Virus record (IMG/VR): IMGVR_UViG_2541047864_000006
Direction: 5' to 3' (one strand)
Source of the DNA: a virus
Lineage: Duplodnaviria > Heunggongvirae > Uroviricota > Caudoviricetes
DNA length: 46,863 nucleotides
Shown here: one piece after another, positions 3,086 through 19,478 of the stretch
Layout of the letters: each line of letters starts with the position of its first letter
Position numbering within the stretch: the stretch's first letter is position 1
The notes under the pieces: generated by a model
Told to the model about the DNA's origin: nothing
The model's database searches: none
What the model saw: only the letters and a program-made list of their open reading frames with translations
Made by a program: the position numbers and the translations under genes

Positions 3086-3705
3086 TACTTCACCTCCTGC
3101 GGCGGCTCCGGTAGCGGCATCCAGTGGGTTACTTTCGATGCCGGTTCTTCCCCATTGTCAGTAACTGCCCACCATTTGTTTCTCGAACAATCGTAATACC
3201 CTTCGAAGGTATCGCACTCAGTCCAGCCGTAAGACTTACCCCAACACCAAACATACTGTTTATCGTTCGGCATTCGCTCACTACAGCTTATCCAACCATC
3301 CGGAGTTACCGGAGAGTTGCCCGACAGCTCGTTCAACTTATAAGTCTGGCTTACAGGTTCGGCACCATTAAGCATGGAGGCGCGGCAGGCGTTCCAGCCT
3401 TCATCAAAGCCGACTATGCCATTATTTAAAGACGGACGAGCATCTGGCACCATCGGCACTGGCTTGGCTATATATAGCGGCTGAACATACCAGCCCTTTG
3501 ATAACCAACTGTCAGCAATGTTTTTACTCCTCGTTATTGCCGGAATACCTAAGCCATTTTCTGAATGCAGCCATGCCACCGGCTCCTCTTCTAGCGATGC
3601 CAGAGCAATTTCATAAGCACGGCGCTCAATATCGTCTCGAACCTCTAGGCTGCTGATTCGTTCTTTGATTTCTTTAATCAGTTCTTTATTGGTAAATGTG
3701 GTCAT
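3085..3705 (-). CDS. Phage protein, Trp-rich C-terminal region (DUF551/Ea22-like)
   Basis: 206-aa ORF translationally coupled in leftward early operon; W/C-rich C-terminus resembling DUF551 prophage proteins (recall only). Confidence 0.5.
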   Translation of the reverse strand: MTTFTNKELIKEIKERISSLEVRDDIERRAYEIALASLEEEPVAWLHSENGLGIPAITRSKNIADSWLSKGWYVQPLYIAKPVPMVPDARPSLNNGIVGFDEGWNACRASMLNGAEPVSQTYKLNELSGNSPVTPDGWISCSERMPNDKQYVWCWGKSYGWTECDTFEGYYDCSRNKWWAVTDNGEEPASKVTHWMPLPEPPQEVK

Positions 3706-4721: not shown

Positions 4722-5546
4722 TCAGGCGGTGAAAGTACCAATAAAGGTTTCTACTTTGCTGTCTTTGAATTTCTCAACAAGCAGATCACGAAATTCGTTA
4801 GCCATATCTTCCTGCACCGCTTCCAGCTGAATAATGCGCAGAACCAGTACAGGACGATCGCCAGTGATAATGCTGAGGCGTAATTTAAACGGACGTTCTT
4901 TCAGACCTTCAAACGGAACGCATTTAAATTCAAATGCCACTGGCATAATGTCTTTGGTCTTCGCTTCGACAGATTCCATCAGGGAGCGTTTGCCGCTGAA
5001 GTCATTATCTTCAAAATCAGCGGTCTGGTTTGCTTCAATCGTGATTTTACGGACTGCCGCAGCCGCTTTTGTTGCCTGAATGGTGTCACCATTAGCATCA
5101 AAGCCCACAAGGTAGTCGGCCCAGTCTTCAATCCATTCTGCCAGTGACTTCTGGGAGTTACGCTCGCCGTTAACAGACAACAGGGCAGAGAACGGTGCTG
5201 TCTTTTTCAGTTTGAGAGTGGCGGTGTTATCTGCGTGACCTGGTTCATCAATAGTACCCAGGTTAAGTACACTGACGGCACGCATATTATCAGCATCGAT
5301 AAAGCAGCGGGTGCCTTCATCTGCAAGATCTTTAGAATAACGGGTAAAGTCATCGATGCTGGCAGTGGAAAGCGCACCACGGAAACGGAAGCGATTTAAA
5401 TTAAATTTTTCCAGATCATGAATGCGGAAATTCTCAGGCAATGCCACAGCATCGGCACCAATATTACTGATAATTTCATTAACACCCTGAGCAGAAATAA
5501 GGGCATGGATTTGATTAATTGCGGTTGCGTCTAAGTTCTGAGACAT
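4722..5546 (-). CDS. yfdQ: YfdQ-like protein (DUF2303)
   Basis: 274-aa ORF with GAGGA SD; size and N-terminus consistent with prophage YfdQ family (recall). Confidence 0.55.
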
Positions 5547-5611
5547 AATAAGTCCTCACTATATAAAGATATTCAGTGATGAGATAAATAATCAGTTAAT
5601 TAAGAACGATA

Positions 5612-5974
5612 TTAATGACCTGCTGCGCGTAGTTTTCCGTCAGGTTCACCGGCAAGAGTCAGTAATTGTCCCTGGTCTTCCTGCAGAATAGTCAGGCGAC
5701 CACCGCGATTGACATACATCGGCGTTTCGGTGGTGTCTTCTTCGGAAATTTTCCCGCGGTTAGTCGGGCGAACATATGAGAGTTTGTGTTTGATTTTCAC
5801 ACGGTTCTCATCAAATGGTTCGATTTCCAGGTTGAGTGAGACCTTACCTTTGGTTTTCGTGTTCATCACACCGGAAGCGACTTCACTGAGAACTGCGCCG
5901 ATTTTGGTTTCAAATACGCCGCCGTCCAGCTCCCCGATAAATGCCTGCACATCAGTACTGCGTTCGCTAGCCAT
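5612..5974 (-). CDS. YfdP-like hypothetical early protein
   Basis: 120 aa from ATG at 5974 preceded by AGGAG SD 7 nt upstream; the longer 197-aa track ORF is an unsupported upstream extension. Confidence 0.55.
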   Translation of the reverse strand: MASERSTDVQAFIGELDGGVFETKIGAVLSEVASGVMNTKTKGKVSLNLEIEPFDENRVKIKHKLSYVRPTNRGKISEEDTTETPMYVNRGGRLTILQEDQGQLLTLAGEPDGKLRAAGH

Positions 5975-6570
5975 TTTGCTGCTCCTCATCATATCGACCC
6001 TGCAAGGTCGGTTGGTTTCTCCACAAAACAGAGAAGAACACCTGCGGTGGCAGCCGCCCGGATGGATTGGGTTATGAGCCTGTCGTCCGGTGATGCTCTT
6101 CTCTGTTTTGTAAAAAGAGCGGTACCAGCCGGAAGCAAGTGTACAAACTGGTACCGCCAAAGCAGTGGCTGTTGTGGTGGGGTTGTCACTCAGGCGTATG
6201 GTCAACCTGACAATCCGGTGTCCTCAACGGGGAAAGAGTAACCCCGCCATACTTACCGCCGCGCCATTTCGCGGATTACCACAACGCTGAGAGCACTTAG
6301 CCAGTTACGGCACCACACTTTGTCGCGGCTCCATAAATGCCCTCATCGTTGCACCCTGGTCTCTTCCCAGGCGTCAAACCGGATCGCCACGCTGGTTAGG
6401 CGTCTTATCAGCATCATCATTGACTTGCACATTCCGGCTACCTGGTTTGTTTGCCCGAGCAAGAAGTGGATTGTCCCCTTTAACGTCCCCAGACCGCTAA
6501 CGACGCATGTGCCATACGCCGTGTTACAACCAAATTTTGTTTGAATCTTGCCTGCCTCATGTTTCTTTTG

Positions 6571-6603
6571 GATACATTATGTATCTCATGGGTACATTGT
6601 CAA
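6571..6603 (-). promoter_or_regulatory. Leftward early promoter pL (-35 TTGACA, 16-bp spacer, -10 CATAAT) overlapped by operator palindrome GATACAT-T-ATGTATC (OL)
   Basis: On minus strand: TTGACA at 6603-6598, CATAAT at 6581-6576; 15-bp palindrome 6571-6585 overlaps the -10. Confidence 0.5.
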
Positions 6604-6605
6604 GT

Positions 6606-6628
6606 ATAAAAAAACCTGCCGAAGCAGG
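6606..6628 (-). terminator. Rho-independent terminator downstream of cI
   Basis: Stem CCTGC/GCAGG with TTCG loop followed by U-run on minus strand, ~15 nt after cI stop. Confidence 0.6.
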
Positions 6629-6642
6629 TTCATAAATATTGA

Positions 6643-7317
6643 TTAGGCCTTTATTGTGTATCTTCTTGGTTTTCCCGAGAAAATCACTGTACCAATTATA
6701 GAGCAATTACCGTTAATCTTAATGTAAGGCTCAGGCCAGTTTGGGTTTAATGCTTTGAGATAACGCTGTGTTCCATCTTCTATCAATCGCTTGAAGGTGG
6801 TTTCGCCTGTATCGTGCATCAATGCAATAACGTCGTCACCGTGGCAGGCAGGGACTTCGGGATCAACAAAAATCATGTCTCCAGGGCGGTACTCATCAAT
6901 CATTGAATCACCAATCACCCGCAAGATATAAGTCATTTCGCCACAGGGTACAGGGCAGGGATACGTTTCTGCTGTGCTCAAATCAACCTCAGAATAGCCA
7001 ACTTCTTTCCATGCTCCGGCCTGTACCCATGATATGACAGGGACTAACGTTATTTGTTTGTTAGTGATTGAAACATCAGGTTTTTTTGTGATGTTCGTTG
7101 TCTGGTGTTCTTGATCAAGCCATCCGACAGGCAGGTCGAAACATTTTTCGATGTGCCGTGCCATGCTGTCACCGATATTTTTAGTAGCGCCATCCCCCAT
7201 AAACCTGCTGGTTTGGGTTGGCTCGCGATCAATCATGGTGGCAAAGGATGAATTTCCGCCAACACCATCTCTCAGTTTTCTGGCGTTAGACCGCCGGATG
7301 TCATGGATTGTTTTCAT
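6643..7317 (-). CDS. CI-type prophage repressor (N-terminal HTH, C-terminal S24 LexA-like autopeptidase)
   Basis: 224 aa; C-terminal GDSM (Ser nucleophile) and FKRL (Lys) motifs of S24 peptidases; divergent from cro. Confidence 0.85.
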   Translation of the reverse strand: MKTIHDIRRSNARKLRDGVGGNSSFATMIDREPTQTSRFMGDGATKNIGDSMARHIEKCFDLPVGWLDQEHQTTNITKKPDVSITNKQITLVPVISWVQAGAWKEVGYSEVDLSTAETYPCPVPCGEMTYILRVIGDSMIDEYRPGDMIFVDPEVPACHGDDVIALMHDTGETTFKRLIEDGTQRYLKALNPNWPEPYIKINGNCSIIGTVIFSGKPRRYTIKA

Positions 7318-7333
7318 AACGAAATTAAAACCT

Positions 7334-7352
7334 TTGTACCGATAAGGTACAA
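7334..7352. promoter_or_regulatory. Operator OR: palindrome TTGTACC-GATAA-GGTACAA
   Basis: Perfect 7-bp inverted repeat with 5-bp spacer between cI and cro. Confidence 0.55.
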
Positions 7353-7357
7353 GTATC

Positions 7358-7385
7358 TTGAAGGTTCATTTCAATCATGTAATAT
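7358..7385 (+). promoter_or_regulatory. Rightward early promoter pR (-35 TTGAAG, 16-bp spacer, -10 TAATAT)
   Basis: Hexamers at 7358-7363 and 7380-7385, ~25 nt upstream of cro. Confidence 0.5.
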
Positions 7386-7407
7386 GTATACCGGAGGTAC
7401 ATATTGT

Positions 7408-7608
7408 ATGAAAGCGTATTGGGACTCTTTAACCAAAGAACAGCAGGGCGAGTTGGCCGGAAAAGTTGGCTCAACACCTGGCTACTTACGGCTGGTTTTC
7501 AATGGTTATAAAAAAGCCAGTTTTGTGCTGGCGAAAAAACTTGAGCAATGCACGTCAGGTGCAATTACGAAATCTGACTTAAGACCGGATATCTATCCGA
7601 AAGATTAA
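7408..7608 (+). CDS. Cro/YdaS-like small HTH regulator
   Basis: 66 aa from ATG 7408 with GGAGG SD 10 nt upstream; divergent from cI; the track ORF start at 7303 would run through the operator region. Confidence 0.7.
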   Translation: MKAYWDSLTKEQQGELAGKVGSTPGYLRLVFNGYKKASFVLAKKLEQCTSGAITKSDLRPDIYPKD

Positions 7609-7639
7609 CAGAACACCTTCAATTTTTAACCACAGAACG

Positions 7640-8203
7640 ATGAGGCTAACCGTGGGTAAGTATCACTGGAAAGTAGAAAAACAGCCTGAGTGGTACGTGA
7701 AAGCTGTCAGAAAAACTATCGCAGCGTTGCCGGGTGGTTACGCTGAAGCAGCTGACTGGCTGGATGTAACAGAGAACGCATTATTTAACCGCCTTCGTGC
7801 CGATGGCGATCAGATTTTCCCGCTGGGATGGGCAATGGTTTTACAGCGCGCGGCTGGCACTCACTACATTGCGGATGCTGTCGCACAGTCTGCTGGTGGG
7901 GTGTTCGTATCGCTTCCTGAAATTGAGGAAGTAGAGAACGCCGATATAAACCAGCGCCTGCTGGAAGTCATCGAACAGATCGGGAATTACTCAAAGCAGA
8001 TTCGTTCGGCAATCGAAGATGGGGTCGTGGAGCCACACGAGCAGACAGCAATTAATGATGAGTTGTATCTGTCAATTTCGAAGCTCCAAGAGCATGCAGC
8101 ACTGGTCTACAAAATCTTTTGCGCTCCAGAAAAGAGTGACGCCCGCGAGTGTGCAGCTCCGGGCGTCGTGGCGTTTTGTGTCTGTGGAGAAACTAACGCA
8201 TGA
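7640..8203 (+). CDS. Hypothetical early regulatory protein (CII/YdaT/YmfL-like position)
   Basis: 187-aa ORF first after cro; possible alternative GTG start at 7652 with GAGG SD. Confidence 0.5.
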   Translation: MRLTVGKYHWKVEKQPEWYVKAVRKTIAALPGGYAEAADWLDVTENALFNRLRADGDQIFPLGWAMVLQRAAGTHYIADAVAQSAGGVFVSLPEIEEVENADINQRLLEVIEQIGNYSKQIRSAIEDGVVEPHEQTAINDELYLSISKLQEHAALVYKIFCAPEKSDARECAAPGVVAFCVCGETNA

Positions 8204-9036
8204 ACAGTTTAACGGCAAATAACCGTTTGTCGCAACAGCTGGTGGTCAGTGTCGCTGAACACCTGTTGTTACGGCATGAATGCAGATTACCAAATTACCT
8301 GGCTGTAAGTAACCACAGAGAACTTTACCTGACTGTGGGGGGCGAGTTGTGCGGGAACTTAACCGCTGGTTTCGTGACGGAAGAGGGCTTTATGTCCATG
8401 TTATTCGTTGGGAACCAGAAACACAGCGCGTTATCTATCTTCGCAAAGACTACCCGCATGAGTGCTTTAGTCCTTTGTGGAAATTCAGGCGTGATTTTGT
8501 TGAGTGTGAAGGACCACCAGCACATTGATTCTGCCATTCCGGGACGTTACACTGTTCAGGCACCTTATAAAGCGGGTGACGGGATTGGCGTCCTGGAAAT
8601 GTTATCGGCGATATATGACGCGCCAGCGTCTTTTTTATCGTCTGCGTCTGTGCACACCCAAATTATGGTGGGCTGGACGGGGGCACCGAAAGGTGCGCCG
8701 GTTTCCGATAACGCCGGTTACGCCAACCCCGTTCAGTTCACCACCAGCGAAATTGGCGTTTCCGGTGGTGAAGGTAATTCACTGTTATCGGAGGCTGCCA
8801 TCATGGCTACTGTCCCAGCCCTCACTCGTCTGAATGATGAAGACTTACATAAACTCAGTTATGTAACAACTGCACTACGTGCTCTGCGCAAGGTAACTCT
8901 TTCGGATCCGCAGGCGCATCAGGTTTTGGTAGAAACCCTTCTTAACTTGCAGGCTGAACGTATTCGTCTGGCGGATAAGGCTAATTTTCATATTCACCGT
9001 CTCCTGAATATCAGCGGAGGGCATCGTCATGCTTAA
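8200..9036 (+). CDS. Hypothetical protein
   Basis: 278-aa ORF, ATGA overlap with upstream gene. Confidence 0.5.
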   Translation: MNSLTANNRLSQQLVVSVAEHLLLRHECRLPNYLAVSNHRELYLTVGGELCGNLTAGFVTEEGFMSMLFVGNQKHSALSIFAKTTRMSALVLCGNSGVILLSVKDHQHIDSAIPGRYTVQAPYKAGDGIGVLEMLSAIYDAPASFLSSASVHTQIMVGWTGAPKGAPVSDNAGYANPVQFTTSEIGVSGGEGNSLLSEAAIMATVPALTRLNDEDLHKLSYVTTALRALRKVTLSDPQAHQVLVETLLNLQAERIRLADKANFHIHRLLNISGGHRHA

Positions 9037-15315: not shown

Positions 15316-15614
15316 AAAATTCCTTAATACTGATAACTTGGCGCACTATACACACGTTCCTGAAGAAAGCTATAGTTTTTTGATGGGGTTGAAGATGGCT
15401 GGATGTCTAAAATAAACATTGCTTCATATGTTCAACTATGCGTTAATGATTGCGTCGGTTTGAAGAACAGACGATATACGAAGTAGTTTACTAAAGCAGT
15501 TCTCATTTCAGGTGTTATTCACTTATTCCTTCTTTGAGTCTCTCCAATTAAGTACGAAGTCGTTTCTGTTATACAAGCCATTTATGCCGAAAGGCTCAAG
15601 TTAAGGAATGTAGA

Positions 15615-15830
15615 ATGTCAAATAAAATGACTGGTTTAGTAAAATGGTTTAACGCTGATAAAGGTTTTGGCTTTATTTCTCCTGTTGATGGTAGTAAAGA
15701 TGTGTTTGTGCATTTTTCTGCGATTCAGAATGATAATTATCGAACCTTATTTGAAGGTCAAAAGGTTACCTTCTCTGTAGAGAGTGGTGCTAAAGGTCCT
15801 GCAGCAGCAAATGTCATAATTACTGATTAA
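15615..15830 (+). CDS. cspB: Cold-shock protein, CspB-like
   Basis: 71 aa; near-identical to E. coli CspB by recall ([21 protein letters not shown]); long AT-rich 5' leader; divergent from cspF. Confidence 0.9.
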
Positions 15831-16112
15831 AATTCATAGTTTGTCTGTATACGATAACGAAGAAGGCTGATGCCTGAGTGGAGATACAGACAGAGTGGTG
15901 AATATTGGATCTCTTTAATAAATAGTAAGGAGGTCCAATACATGAAACAATGGCCAGCATATTTGGCAATAACTTAATCAGGAAAAGTATGCTAACCATT
16001 GTGGTGAAGTGCAGGTTTGCTGCATGAATAGTTTTACAGCAGAAGCTAACTGCTGGCATAGCAAAACAAAGTGCGTAAGTGGATGACTCCCACAAAAAGT
16101 ACCACAATATTA

Positions 16113-18703: not shown

Positions 18704-19066
18704 ATTAATATTAAATCGGATTATTTTTAGCGCTGAATGTGAAATTTAAATAAAAAGGACTCTTCCATGAGTCAAAATCCTTGAAATCTTAAGGGTAAGA
18801 TAAAAGGTCATTAGACAGAATGACACGTTTTATTAATAAATAAAGCTATTGTTTCATTCGTGTGTTTTTCTTTACAAAAGTAATCCTTGCTATGGTTGGT
18901 TAATCATGCGTTAATGGTGTTCTGGTTTGTTACAAAATTATCTGAAGCAGTCATTGTTATAAATTTATTATTTGTACCTCTTGAGATTTCCTTGTTGGTT
19001 TTTCTCTCTGATATTTTTTTTCGGACCATTCTGCCCAAGGGCTAACTTCTTCAAAAGGTAATAATG

Positions 19067-19279
19067 ATGTCTAACAAAATGACTGGTTTAGTGAAATGGT
19101 TTAACCCTGAAAAAGGTTTTGGTTTCATCACGCCGAAAGATGGTAGCAAAGATGTGTTTGTCCATTTCTCAGCTATTCAGAGCAACGATTTCAAAACGTT
19201 AACTGAGAATCAGGAAGTCGAATTTGGTATTGAGAACGGACCTAAAGGCCCCGCGGCTGTTCATGTAGTGGCACTTTGA
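19067..19279 (+). CDS. cspI: Cold-shock protein, CspI-like
   Basis: 70 aa; matches E. coli CspI by recall ([45 protein letters not shown]). Confidence 0.9.
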
Positions 19280-19478
19280 GGTAGAAAATATTACAAACCA
19301 TATTCACTTTAGATGCCCGTGTTGCCATGGTTCTCAGTATAGAACATCATCTTTTGATGTTTCTGACAGGAATCCTTTCGGGGCAAAATGTATCTTTTGT
19401 AAATCAATGATGATTACATTTGATAATATTTCACAATACTTAAATGTTAGCCGTCTGTCGTTAGATTTAAGAAAGTGA
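19269..19478 (+). pseudogene. Zinc-ribbon ORF (CPCC...CIFC) lacking an in-frame ATG/GTG/TTG start; possible pseudogene or non-canonical start
   Basis: 69-codon open frame directly after cspI; first in-frame ATG only at 19407. Confidence 0.35.

What the first reader, a model, noticed from the sequence alone, without database searches (positions are those of the whole stretch)
5975..6603. Consensus-like pL followed by a ~600-nt ORF-free GC-rich leader: possible RNA-based antitermination or structured ncRNA
A near-consensus leftward promoter (TTGACA-16-CATAAT) overlapped by an operator palindrome lies just past the cI terminator. The first leftward gene starts only at 5974, leaving a ~600-nt transcribed region with no plausible ORF (only arginine-rich peptides of about 25 aa) and no N-like gene. 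In N-less lambdoid phages such as HK022, cis-acting put RNAs at this position provide antitermination, so a comparable RNA element or a regulatory sRNA is plausible here.
Basis: inference. Interest (0 to 1): 0.5.

Follow-up and report, generated by a model that had tools for sequence, protein, structure and literature searches.

The report
Modular non-coding RNA leader after pL
The 600 bases between this prophage's early leftward promoter and its first gene carry no hidden gene and no HK022-type antiterminator; they are a chain of conserved, folded non-coding RNA modules, one of which is a widespread structured phage RNA that is in no catalogue and has no known function.

Summary
A near-consensus pL (TTGACA-16-CATAAT, 6603..6576, minus strand) carries an operator between its hexamers. 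It lies just past the cI terminator and is followed by about 595 nt with no conserved ORF.

The leader is structured RNA, but it is not a put or nut site. It is a mosaic of modules that recombine among phages:

- **Module c (6522..6286):** a multi-helix RNA of about 175 nt plus a terminal hairpin. It has a near-invariant 19-mer and strong covariation (96% of cells paired, 11 compensatory pairs). It has no Rfam match. It occurs in more than 120 viral contigs, in P1, Stx2c phages, mEp460 and epsilon15-like phages, and in prophages of at least ten enterobacterial genera.
- **Module b (6285..6171):** the homologue of the 5' domain of the 190-nt DicF precursor of prophage Qin.
- **A DicF-like hairpin with U-tract (6158..6112):** a candidate sRNA and terminator.
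- **A 25-bp stem (6116..6018):** an RNase III-type site, followed by a small hairpin in front of the first gene.

The most likely mechanism is a polycistronic non-coding RNA precursor that RNase III and RNase E cut into stable RNAs and a trimmed mRNA. The function of module c is unresolved, and cis antitermination is not excluded.

The parts
6643..7317 (-). cI-type repressor gene (context; it defines the left end of the immunity region)
   Evidence: Peptidase_S24 domain, E=1.5e-26. 98% identical region annotated as repressor/cI in phages Ayreon and SfV.
6612..6631 (-). Intrinsic terminator hairpin of the cI transcript, followed by a U-run
   Evidence: Terminator scan: 8-bp stem, loop of 4, then TTTTATACTT. 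Annotated as a terminator in Ayreon and SfV.
6576..6603 (-). pL promoter, TTGACA-16-CATAAT. The inferred transcription start is near 6569.
   Evidence: 11 of 12 matches to consensus. Identical in SfV and annotated as a promoter in Ayreon. The start site is inferred, not measured.
6580..6596 (.). Operator OL (TGTATCTCATGGGTACA), between the -35 and -10 hexamers
   Evidence: One of three perfect TGTAY-N7-RTACA sites in the window; the other two are in the cI/cro intergenic region.
6523..6569 (-). Spacer of about 46 nt at the 5' end, ending in the A/U-rich AAAAUUUGGUUGUAAC. This may be a single-stranded processing site.
   Evidence: The last ~15 nt are shared with P1 and D6, where they directly follow tRNA-Ile. 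In lambdoid relatives with different promoters the distance from the -10 hexamer to the element is 47-54 nt.
6348..6522 (-). Module c core: a structured RNA with helices P1, P2 (plus a variable P2b), P6, a variable P3, P4 and P5, and the near-invariant 19-mer GGUAGCCGGAAUGUGCAAG (6443..6425)
   Evidence: Covariance model R1 scores 151.8 bits, E=1e-46, as the only hit in the window. On 42 sequences, 96% of cells are paired against 30-43% for slid controls, with 11 pairs changed on both sides and 0 of 500 shuffles reaching the score. An independently found set of 22 gave the same result, and 21 of the 22 keep the 19-mer. No Rfam hit at E<=10. Conserved G-U pairs fix the strand.
6288..6345 (-). 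Terminal hairpin of module c (UGAGGGCA...UGCUCUCA enclosing a variable hairpin). Inferred RNase III site.
   Evidence: The closing helix covaries across relatives: AAGAGCA/UGCUCUU and GAGCGCAC/GUGCGCUC. Folding gives -25 kcal/mol, z=-3.0. The hairpin at the same position in Qin holds the approximate 5' end of the 190-nt DicF species, which RNase III makes (PMC10448788).
6171..6285 (-). Module b: a multi-helix junction RNA closed by GUUGUGGU/ACCACAAC. It is the homologue of the 5' domain of the 190-nt DicF precursor.
   Evidence: 89-90% identical over window 6163-6285 to the Qin and Evi sequence immediately upstream of DicF. 75% identical to the region next to the annotated 'dicF-like region' of P1. 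Structure: 88.8% of cells paired against 35-64% for slid controls, with 6 pairs changed on both sides. The minimum-energy fold reproduces it.
6112..6170 (-). DicF-like sRNA candidate: a single-stranded linker (6170..6159), a 13-bp hairpin (6158..6118) and the U-tract CUUUUU (6117..6112). This is an intrinsic-terminator-type 3' end.
   Evidence: It occupies the DicF position and shares UUUGGCGGUAYCAGUUU with DicF. 9 of 13 stem pairs show changes on both sides in relatives. Folding gives -21.2 kcal/mol, z=-3.75. It does not reach the Rfam DicF model. In SfV the homologous hairpin is the 3' end of the STnc100 hit.
6018..6116 (-). Long hairpin with a 25-bp near-perfect stem (6116..6092 paired with 6042..6018) whose 5' arm includes the terminator U-tract. 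Inferred RNase III substrate that separates the non-coding part from the mRNA.
   Evidence: Folding gives -49.3 kcal/mol, z=-7.4. 96% of cells are paired across 10 phages from Escherichia, Shigella, Salmonella, Klebsiella and Citrobacter, with compensatory changes at 3 pairs.
5993..6010 (-). Small 6-bp hairpin just upstream of the ribosome-binding site. It may act as a 5' stabiliser after cleavage.
   Evidence: 4 of 6 pairs show changes on both sides. Present in the minimum-energy fold.
5612..5987 (-). Shine-Dalgarno GAGGAG (5987..5982) and the first leftward gene (yfdP-like, start codon 5974..5972)
   Evidence: ORF list. PHROG 204, E=1e-49, no Pfam family. Followed by genes for a DUF2303 protein and a YfbR-like protein.

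Best explanation
The ORF-free stretch is a modular, polycistronic non-coding RNA precursor. It is transcribed from pL as soon as the cI repressor is lost.

**Order of transcription**
1. A spacer of about 46 nt.
2. Module c, a pseudoknot-capable RNA core of about 175 nt, ending in a long terminal hairpin.
3. Module b, the conserved 5' domain known from the 190-nt DicF precursor.
4. A DicF-like hairpin with a U-tract.
5. A 25-bp stem.
6. A small hairpin, the ribosome-binding site and the yfdP-like gene.

**Proposed processing (inferred by homology with the Qin dicBF operon, where it was shown experimentally)**
- RNase III cuts in the terminal hairpin of module c. This releases module c as a separate RNA and leaves a species of about 175 nt made of module b plus the hairpin.
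- RNase E then cuts the single-stranded linker and leaves a hairpin sRNA of about 55 nt. Its 3' end is made by intrinsic termination.
- Polymerases that read through transcribe the 25-bp stem. That stem captures the U-tract and is cut by RNase III, leaving the downstream mRNA with a hairpin-protected 5' end.

The leader therefore does two things. It produces accessory RNAs, and it attenuates and insulates expression of the leftward genes.

**Module c.** I think it is most likely an autonomous accessory RNA that acts through a host factor or an invariant host partner. The reasons are that it is a self-contained module found in three unrelated operon contexts, it has no partner protein nearby, and sibling phages do without it.

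**What is shown and what is inferred.** Shown here: the anatomy, the homologies, the covariation and the absence of coding signal. Inferred: the transcription start, every cleavage step, termination efficiency and every function.
For: **The leader is a mosaic of modules.** Each part has its own set of relatives.

**Module c**
- Conserved structure with compensatory changes.
- The 19-mer is kept in 21 of 22 sequences that were found without using it.
- No coding signal.
- Always on the sense strand of the local transcription unit, in three contexts:
  - directly after cI-type repressors of several different lengths;
  - upstream of tRNA-Arg in epsilon15-like phages;
  - between tRNA-Ile and ban in P1.
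- Promoter-proximal in the first two contexts.
- No shared protein family within 5 kb either side across these contexts.
- Absent from SfV, ST64B, phiNP and F1055, which keep the downstream modules.

**Module b and the hairpin**
- Homologous to the Qin sequence just upstream of DicF, with compensatory changes in the closing helix.
- The P1 record annotates a dicF-like region at the equivalent place.

**The downstream hairpins.** The hairpin/terminator, the 25-bp stem and the small hairpin have z-scores of -3.75, -7.4 and (for 5960-6175 as a whole) -6.2, with covariation.

**Transcription evidence from a relative.** In prophage ST64B, which has the equivalent ORF-free gap, RNA-seq found an ncRNA (STnc1310) and the two genes downstream of cI to be highly expressed under the inducing peroxide and nitric-oxide shocks (PMC7067206).

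**A self-contained unit elsewhere.** In epsilon15-like phages the order is promoter, module c, tRNA-Arg, terminator.
Against: - There are no transcript data for this phage. The start site, the cleavage sites and the stability of module c are all inferred.
- The RNase III site in Qin was placed from the published fragment lengths (190 and 53 nt), which is accurate only to a few nucleotides.
- The hairpin sRNA fails the Rfam DicF model and lacks DicF's 5' seed, so its targets, and even its activity as an sRNA, are unknown.
- The single-sequence fold of module c plus module b is only marginally better than shuffles (z=-1.9).
- A near-invariant 19-mer and a constant promoter distance would suit a cis-acting, co-transcriptional role at least as well as a trans-acting one.
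- A terminator follows module c in most loci. That is what an antiterminator design predicts.
- No host partner was found. The invariant blocks show no special complementarity to E. coli rRNA or to the three tRNAs of the rrnH operon.
Confidence: 0.55

Rival explanations
1. Module c is a cis-acting processive antitermination or anti-Rho RNA. It would work like put without being a put homologue. It would fold on the nascent pL transcript, bind RNA polymerase or Nus factors, and carry transcription through the sRNA terminator and the long untranslated leader into the leftward genes of a phage that has no N.
For: - No N-like gene.
- Module c is the first structured element after pL in lambdoid phages with many different repressors, 47-54 nt from the -10 hexamer.
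- A terminator-like hairpin follows on the sense strand within 0.2-0.46 kb in 41 of 43 lambdoid loci, 21 of 21 epsilon15-type loci and 21 of 28 other loci. This is more than on the antisense strand or upstream.
- The near-invariant single-stranded 19-mer suggests an invariant host partner such as RNA polymerase.
- The mEp phage collection was isolated as Nus-dependent (PMC11893012). mEp460 and mEp390 carry the mEp name; their Nus phenotype was not checked here.
Against: - No sequence or structure similarity to HK022 putL or putR.
- Only one copy in the window, and none in the rightward operon.
- In P1 it lies downstream of the operon's dicF-like terminator and directly before ban, with no terminator after it in 0 of 10 loci.
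- SfV, ST64B and phiNP keep the same terminator hairpin and downstream genes without module c.
- The boxA-like string UGCUCUC/UGCUCUUU at its 3' end is base-paired and covaries as a helix, and some members replace it with GCGCUC.
Confidence: 0.2
2. Module c is a catalytic or ligand-sensing RNA. It could be a self-cleaving ribozyme that defines the ends of the neighbouring tRNA or sRNA cassettes, or a riboswitch-like sensor that sets early leftward expression.
For: - Highly conserved joining regions and a possible pseudoknot: the invariant GCACAU in the P1 loop is complementary to the invariant AUGUGC.
- Variable peripheral hairpins surround a fixed core.
- It directly abuts tRNAs. The tRNA-Arg 5' end coincides with its 3' boundary CGUU|GUGG, and tRNA-Ile lies 15 nt upstream in P1.
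- Its gene context is diverse, as is typical of self-cleaving ribozymes.
Against: - No match to any ribozyme or riboswitch family in Rfam, even at E<=10.
- The downstream genes are unrelated to each other, which is unlike a riboswitch.
- No conserved expression platform, meaning no terminator or ribosome-binding site that could pair with the core, is evident.
- The pseudoknot has no covariation support, and two single variants break it.
Confidence: 0.1
3. The leader hides a protein-coding gene: an N-like or other small protein with a non-canonical start, or a gene on the opposite strand, as several GenBank records annotate.
For: - Several records place hypothetical proteins over the region.
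- PHROG families 3651 and 33599 match ORFs read from it.
- Arginine-rich peptides of 25-39 aa can be read from the sense strand.
Against: - No frame stays open across relatives on either strand.
- Variability is equal at the three codon positions: 0.206/0.201/0.210 for module c, 0.188/0.192/0.188 for the hairpin region and 0.129/0.132/0.144 for module b.
- Lengths are not constrained to multiples of three.
- Changes are compensatory across helices, which is the signature of selection on RNA.
- No Pfam family.
Confidence: 0.03
4. The leader is non-functional recombination debris: remnants of tRNA and sRNA regions left by mosaic exchange between phages.
For: - The region is visibly a patchwork with sharp module boundaries.
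- Parts of it are missing or replaced in close relatives.
Against: - Each module keeps its base-pairing through compensatory substitutions across genera.
- The 19-mer is almost invariant across at least ten genera.
- 897 of 5426 complete E. coli genomes keep at least 80% of the leader.
Confidence: 0.03

Closest known systems
dicBF operon of cryptic prophage Qin (DicF sRNA, Rfam RF00039)
   Same: - It is a repressor-controlled operon of the pL type.
- A conserved structured RNA domain (module b here, 89-90% identical over window 6163-6285) lies immediately upstream of a hairpin and U-tract sRNA that shares UUUGGCGGUAYCAGUUU.
- A hairpin that holds the RNase III-made 5' end of the 190-nt species lies just upstream of the GUUGUGG closing helix.
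- Transcription reads through into downstream protein genes (PMC10448788).
   Different: - The window's hairpin fails the DicF covariance model and lacks DicF's 5' seed UUUCUGGUGACG, so its targets probably differ.
- Qin has three small ORFs (ydfABC) upstream, where the window has module c.
- Qin has an STnc100-like cassette after DicF, where the window has the 25-bp stem.
HK022 putL/putR antiterminator RNAs
   Same: It is a folded RNA encoded just downstream of the early leftward promoter of a lambdoid phage that has no N gene.
   Different: - put RNAs are about 70 nt with two stem-loops, and putL begins at the transcript start (PMC9378689). Module c is about 175-235 nt with at least six helices and starts near +46.
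- There is no sequence or covariance-model similarity.
- The putL relatives (HK022, HK75, O276, HK639, phiEt88 and others) and the relatives of this leader share no member.
- There is no second copy in the rightward operon.
STnc100 (Rfam RF02076) and the P1 ban-operon leader ('dicF-like region', tRNAs)
   Same: - All are built from interchangeable non-coding cassettes in phage early operons. Module b in the window and the STnc100-like cassette in SfV are closed by GUUGUGG/CCACAAC-type helices, and tRNA-Arg can take the same slot.
- In SfV the STnc100 hit ends in the same hairpin and terminator as the window's.
- P1 carries a module b-like region with a dicF-like hairpin at the head of the ban operon, and module c just before ban.
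   Different: - The window itself has no STnc100 hit.
- The order and the neighbours of the modules differ in P1.
- The functions of STnc100 and of the P1 dicF-like region are themselves unknown.
Lambda pL leader (nutL, RNase III site, N). This comparison rests on established knowledge, not on a test made here.
   Same: It is an untranslated pL leader that holds a long RNase III-sensitive hairpin ahead of the first gene, with a terminator that early transcription must pass.
   Different: - There is no N-like protein.
- No free boxA and no boxB were seen by reading the sequence.
- The leader is about three times longer and encodes separate structured RNAs.

Membership tests
HK022-type put antiterminator RNA | Sequence and structure homology to putL/putR (about 70 nt, two stem-loops) | tested here: not met
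   Covariance model R1 of the promoter-proximal element finds nothing in the HK022 stretch fetched, which holds putL and probably putR. BLAST relatives of putL share no member with relatives of this leader. No similarity is seen on reading the sequences. Architecture taken from PMC9378689.
HK022-type put antiterminator RNA | Located just downstream of an early promoter in a phage lacking N | tested here: met
   pL at 6603..6576 and the element from 6522. No N-like protein. Same position after several repressor types.
HK022-type put antiterminator RNA | A second copy in the rightward early operon (putR) | tested here: not met
   R1 finds a single copy in the 46.8-kb window.
HK022-type put antiterminator RNA | Suppresses terminators in cis through the beta-prime zinc-binding domain of RNA polymerase | not testable with these tools
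   This needs read-through assays and rpoC mutants. The only indirect data are that terminator-like hairpins follow the element in 83 of 102 loci, and that sibling phages keep the terminator without the element.
DicF sRNA (RF00039) | Reaches the Rfam DicF model | tested here: not met
   No DicF hit in the window at E<=1 or at E<=10 on 5975-6580. Qin, Evi and PPompW score 76-77 bits.
DicF sRNA (RF00039) | Lies in a repressor-controlled early-left operon, directly downstream of the conserved precursor domain | tested here: met
   Module b at 6285..6171 is 89-90% identical (over window 6163-6285) to the Qin and Evi sequence that abuts DicF. The hairpin occupies the DicF position.
DicF sRNA (RF00039) | Terminator-type hairpin with a U-tract | tested here: met
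   A 13-bp stem, -21.2 kcal/mol, followed by CUUUUU. 9 of 13 pairs covary. It shares UUUGGCGGUAYCAGUUU with DicF.
DicF sRNA (RF00039) | The 5' seed UUUCUGGUGACG and the loop sequence of DicF | tested here: not met
   The alignment shows the ~20 nt that hold the seed are absent and the loop differs. A crude duplex comparison with the ftsZ start region was uninformative.
DicF sRNA (RF00039) | [quoted passage not shown] | not testable with these tools
   Shown for Qin DicF only (PMC10448788).
STnc100 (RF02076) | Match to the Rfam model | tested here: not met
   No hit in the window. Sub-threshold hits (33-40 bits against a gathering score of 47) occur in SfV, ST64B, Qin, Evi, PPompW and P1.
Lambda-type N/nut antitermination | An N-like arginine-rich protein encoded first in the pL operon | tested here: not met
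   No conserved ORF in the leader. No Pfam or PHROG antiterminator family. orf33 of SfV, which lies at the equivalent place, is acidic and not N-like.
Lambda-type N/nut antitermination | A single-stranded boxA followed by a boxB hairpin | tested here: not met
   Checked by reading the sequence only. The boxA-like string UGCUCUC is the 3' strand of a covarying helix, and some members replace it with GCGCUC. No boxB-like hairpin follows it.
Module c (the family defined here; no published name found) | Match to model R1, and the 19-mer GGUAGCCGGAAUGUGCAAG set between helix P2 and helix P6 | tested here: met
   151.8 bits, E=1e-46, at 6522..6327. 19-mer at 6443..6425. Family structure supported.

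The most novel reading that the evidence does not exclude
Module c (6522..6286) may be a new class of functional phage RNA that acts through its fold. It would be either a processive antiterminator or anti-Rho element unrelated to put, or a ribozyme or sensor RNA. It sits at the head of early operons in P1, Stx2c phages, mEp460 and epsilon15-like phages, and in prophages of many enterobacterial genera. Its near-invariant 19-mer would contact a conserved host machine such as RNA polymerase.
Probability: 0.3. Interest if true: 0.85.

Novelty: new variant of a known kind. Interest (0 to 1): 0.62.

Why it matters
- **A different account of the early leftward operon.** Lambdoid early-left operons are textbook objects. 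Yet a large group of them, including medically relevant Stx2c and cdt phages and 16% of complete E. coli genomes, start with about 600 nt of conserved structured RNA that databases either leave blank or cover with spurious hypothetical proteins.
- **DicF looks like one member of a cassette system.** A conserved precursor domain and processing hairpins appear to carry interchangeable 3' sRNA hairpins or even tRNAs. That would explain how prophages diversify regulatory RNAs.
- **Module c is a well-supported orphan RNA.** It has the kind of conservation usually seen in ribozymes, riboswitches or RNAs that bind core machinery. Working out what it does could reveal a new way for temperate phages to control or exploit the host at the moment of induction, and could explain how N-less phages of this group get past their own terminator.
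- **Practical use.** The covariance model and the coordinates allow these regions to be re-annotated.

Tried and rejected
- **Rfam.** Searched at E<=1 on 5000-8000, at E<=10 on 5975-6580, and at gathering thresholds on the whole window. Nothing real turned up inside the leader.
- **tRNA search.** No tRNA gene was found in the window, although part of the leader is homologous to regions that flank tRNAs.
- **put homology.** Rejected.
- **N-like or other hidden ORF.** Rejected.
- **Published prophage sRNAs as the identity of these modules.**
  - svsR lies at the 3' end of cI on the other strand.
  - HnrS lies among the late genes.
  - The Pas sRNAs lie in the Q/lysis region.
  - None of them is this feature.
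- **Complementarity to host RNAs.** The invariant blocks of module c were compared with E. coli 16S, 23S and 5S rRNA and three tRNAs. Nothing stood out from shuffles.
- **Partner protein.** No protein family co-occurs with module c across the lambdoid, P1-like and epsilon15-like contexts.
- **Pseudoknot GCACAU/AUGUGC.** Both sides are invariant, so it cannot be tested. Two single variants break it.
- **Loop-to-cassette pairing.** The P4 loop AUUCACCA is complementary to UGGUGAAU in the STnc100-like cassette, but this does not hold for the tRNA-Arg or module b cassettes.
- **Target prediction.** A duplex comparison of the hairpin sRNA with the ftsZ start region was uninformative.
- **Module d as an alternative to module c.** A second promoter-proximal element (module d, in SfV, ST64B and phiNP) looked like a mutually exclusive alternative to module c. 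It is not: the two co-occur in several loci, and module d is absent from the window.
Full report
**1. The observation**

- A cI-type repressor with a Peptidase_S24 domain lies at 6643-7317 on the minus strand.
- It ends in a hairpin and U-run terminator at 6631..6612.
- TTGACA-16-CATAAT follows at 6603..6576, matching 11 of 12 consensus positions.
- The operator TGTATCTCATGGGTACA (6580-6596) lies between the two hexamers. It is one of only three perfect TGTAY-N7-RTACA sites in the window, and the other two are in the cI/cro intergenic region.
- The first leftward gene resembles yfdP. It matches PHROG 204, has no Pfam family, and starts at 5974.
- G+C is 54-57% in the leader against 35-50% in the flanks.

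No reading frame on either strand is conserved among relatives. Substitutions show no 3-base periodicity, and lengths are not multiples of three. The hypothetical proteins that GenBank records and PHROGs place over the region are therefore best read as artefacts of RNA conservation.

**2. The leader is a mosaic of modules**

BLAST against phages and against complete E. coli genomes shows that each part of the leader has its own set of relatives.
- The whole leader (at least 80% of it) is present in 897 of 5426 complete E. coli genomes.
- It is also present in phages cdtI, 2H10 and Ayreon and in many Stx2c phages.

I named the parts, in the order they are transcribed: module c, module b, the sRNA hairpin, and module a (the long stem plus a small hairpin).

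**3. Module c (6522..6286)**

*Structure.* An alignment of nine phages showed invariant blocks separated by helices with compensatory changes.
- A scan of viral contigs with the invariant 19-mer returned at least 120 loci.
- I tested a hand-built structure (helices P1, P2, P6, P4, P5) on 42 non-redundant cores. It gave 96.0% paired cells against 30-43% when the partners were slid, 11 pairs and 99 cells changed on both sides, and 0 of 500 shuffles reached the score.

*Independent sample.* That first set was found by means of the 19-mer, so I repeated the search on one genome per species with a different pattern.
- 22 of the 29 hits are real by the covariance model. They come from Kosakonia, Phytobacter, Citrobacter, Kluyvera, Klebsiella, Enterobacter, Erwinia, Pseudescherichia, Superficieibacter and Escherichia whittamii, plus one 1.75-kb contig binned as Bacillota that is probably misassigned.
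- 21 of the 22 keep the exact 19-mer.
- The covariation is reproduced: 96.7% of cells paired and 10 pairs changed on both sides.

*Other features.*
- Conserved G-U pairs fix the strand as the pL sense strand.
- A terminal hairpin (6345..6288) also covaries.
- Rfam has no match, even at E<=10.
- The P1-loop sequence GCACAU is complementary to AUGUGC inside the 19-mer. Both are invariant, so covariation cannot test a pseudoknot.

*Genomic context in 131 loci*.
- **Lambdoid phages.** Module c lies directly after cI-type repressors of several lengths, and it starts 47-54 nt after the -10 hexamer whatever the promoter sequence.
- **Epsilon15-like phages** (phiV10, TL-2011b, SPN1S). It heads a small leftward unit: promoter, module c, tRNA-Arg, terminator.
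- **P1 and its relatives.** It lies between tRNA-Ile and ban.

No protein family co-occurs with it across these contexts. The window has exactly one copy.

**4. Module b and the hairpin**

- Window 6163-6285, which spans module b (6285..6171), is 89-90% identical to the sequence immediately upstream of DicF in prophage Qin and in phages Evi and PPompW.
- It is 75% identical to the region at the head of the P1 ban operon, next to what the P1 record calls a dicF-like region.
- It folds into a junction closed by GUUGUGGU/ACCACAAC. Qin has GUUGUGGC/GCUGCAAC, which is a compensatory variant.
- Where Qin has DicF, the window has a 13-bp hairpin followed by CUUUUU (6158..6112). It shares UUUGGCGGUAYCAGUUU with DicF but lacks DicF's 5' seed and fails the DicF model.

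Published experiments show that DicF is cut from the operon transcript. RNase III makes the 5' end of a 190-nt form, and RNase E makes the 53-nt form (PMC10448788). Counting back from the DicF 3' end, the 190-nt 5' end falls in the 3' strand of a hairpin just upstream of GUUGUGG. That is the position of module c's terminal hairpin in the window.

The slot after CGUU|GUGG holds different cassettes in different phages: tRNA-Arg, module b, or an STnc100-like cassette.

**5. Module a**

- The U-tract of the hairpin is the start of a 25-bp near-perfect stem (6116..6092 paired with 6042..6018). Folding gives -49.3 kcal/mol and z=-7.4, and 96% of cells are paired across ten phages from five genera.
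- A 6-bp covarying hairpin follows, and then the ribosome-binding site.
- A stem of this length is a classic RNase III substrate. This is an inference from established knowledge.
- ST64B and phiNP have gaps of 815 and 990 nt with no annotated gene at the same place. In ST64B, RNA-seq found an ncRNA (STnc1310) and the two genes downstream of cI to be highly expressed under the inducing shock conditions (PMC7067206).

**6. Mechanism**

The best-supported reading is that the leader is a polycistronic non-coding RNA precursor.
1. RNase III separates module c from a species made of module b plus the hairpin.
2. RNase E trims that species to a short hairpin sRNA whose 3' end is an intrinsic terminator.
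3. Read-through transcripts are cut at the 25-bp stem, which leaves a hairpin-capped mRNA.

The anatomy and the homologies are shown. Every processing step is inferred.

**7. Antitermination**

Arguments against put membership, and against an obligatory antiterminator:
- The model finds nothing in the HK022 stretch fetched, and the sets of relatives do not overlap.
- There is a single copy.
- In P1 the element lies downstream of the terminator.
- SfV, ST64B and phiNP keep the same terminator without it.

Arguments for keeping the idea alive:
- There is no N.
- The element is promoter-proximal at a constant distance.
- A terminator follows in 83 of 102 loci.
- The 19-mer is nearly invariant.
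- The mEp phage collection was isolated as Nus-dependent.

I put this rival at about 0.2, and ribozyme or riboswitch readings at about 0.1.

**8. Novelty**

The arrangement is a new variant of the DicF-type early-operon sRNA locus. Module c itself appears to be an uncatalogued RNA family. I found no description of it in Rfam or in the papers searched.

Noticed in passing
window 8560-8636 (+) and 8661-8748 (+): IsrK (55 bits) and C4 antisense RNA (83 bits) lie inside or next to the Ash-family ORF at 8200-9036. This looks like a P1/P7 immI-type (c4-icd-ant) antirepressor control module inside a lambdoid immunity region. SfV and mEp460 carry the same pair.
   Followed up: partly
window 15454-15893 (+) and 18920-19325 (+): Two matches to the cspA thermoregulator (157 and 113 bits). 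The prophage therefore carries two cold-shock-type genes with long structured 5' UTRs.
   Followed up: no
L002 (SfV) 3400-3490 minus strand; also L137, L139, L005, L138, L029, L102, L141, L143, L155, L166, L167: A second conserved promoter-proximal element (module d, about 65 nt, GGACGCCCACGAAGUAGCCGCC followed by a covarying hairpin) lies at about +25 to +95 of the same pL in SfV, SfII, SfIV, ST64B and phiNP. It also occurs in Yersinia, Pantoea and Pectobacterium phages, with weaker partial matches in Aeromonas and Providencia phages: 51 phage records in all, none of them naming it. It is absent from the window apart from its first ~10 nt, and it co-occurs upstream of module c in several loci. 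BLAST finds no similarity to put. It is a candidate put- or nut-like element in its own right.
   Followed up: partly
window 5975-6570, both strands; GenBank records of Ayreon, mEp460, F1055 and cdtI: The hypothetical proteins annotated over the leader, and PHROG families 3651 and 33599, are built on conserved RNA. No reading frame is conserved and there is no codon periodicity.
   Followed up: yes
window 6285-6278 and relatives (A2, columns ~421-428): The alternative cassettes that follow module c all begin at CGUU|GUGG. These are tRNA-Arg (whose mature 5' end coincides with the boundary), module b, and the STnc100-like cassette. Module b and the STnc100-like cassette are closed by GUUGUGG/CCACAAC-type helices. 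This suggests a shared processing or recombination boundary.
   Followed up: partly
module c P4 loop (window 6398-6392; AUUCACCA in most relatives): The loop AUUCACCA(U) is perfectly complementary over 8-9 nt to UGGUGAAU at the start of the STnc100-like cassette that follows module c in many loci. The same loop also occurs before tRNA-Arg, where no complement exists. This is unexplained.
   Followed up: partly
window ~6643-6720 (3' end of cI, plus strand): A published sRNA, svsR (similar to C0293), was described at the 3' end of cI on the opposite strand in the lambdoid prophage NC-SV (PMC12803456). I did not check whether the window encodes it. The weak Rfam hits near 6567-6688 only reflect the terminator.
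   Followed up: no
L143, L166, L167 (Phytobacter ursingii); L146/L162, L144/L147, L161/L168: Some genomes carry several copies of module c in different prophages: three in Phytobacter ursingii, and two each in Citrobacter braakii, Kosakonia quasisacchari and Pseudescherichia vulneris.
   Followed up: no
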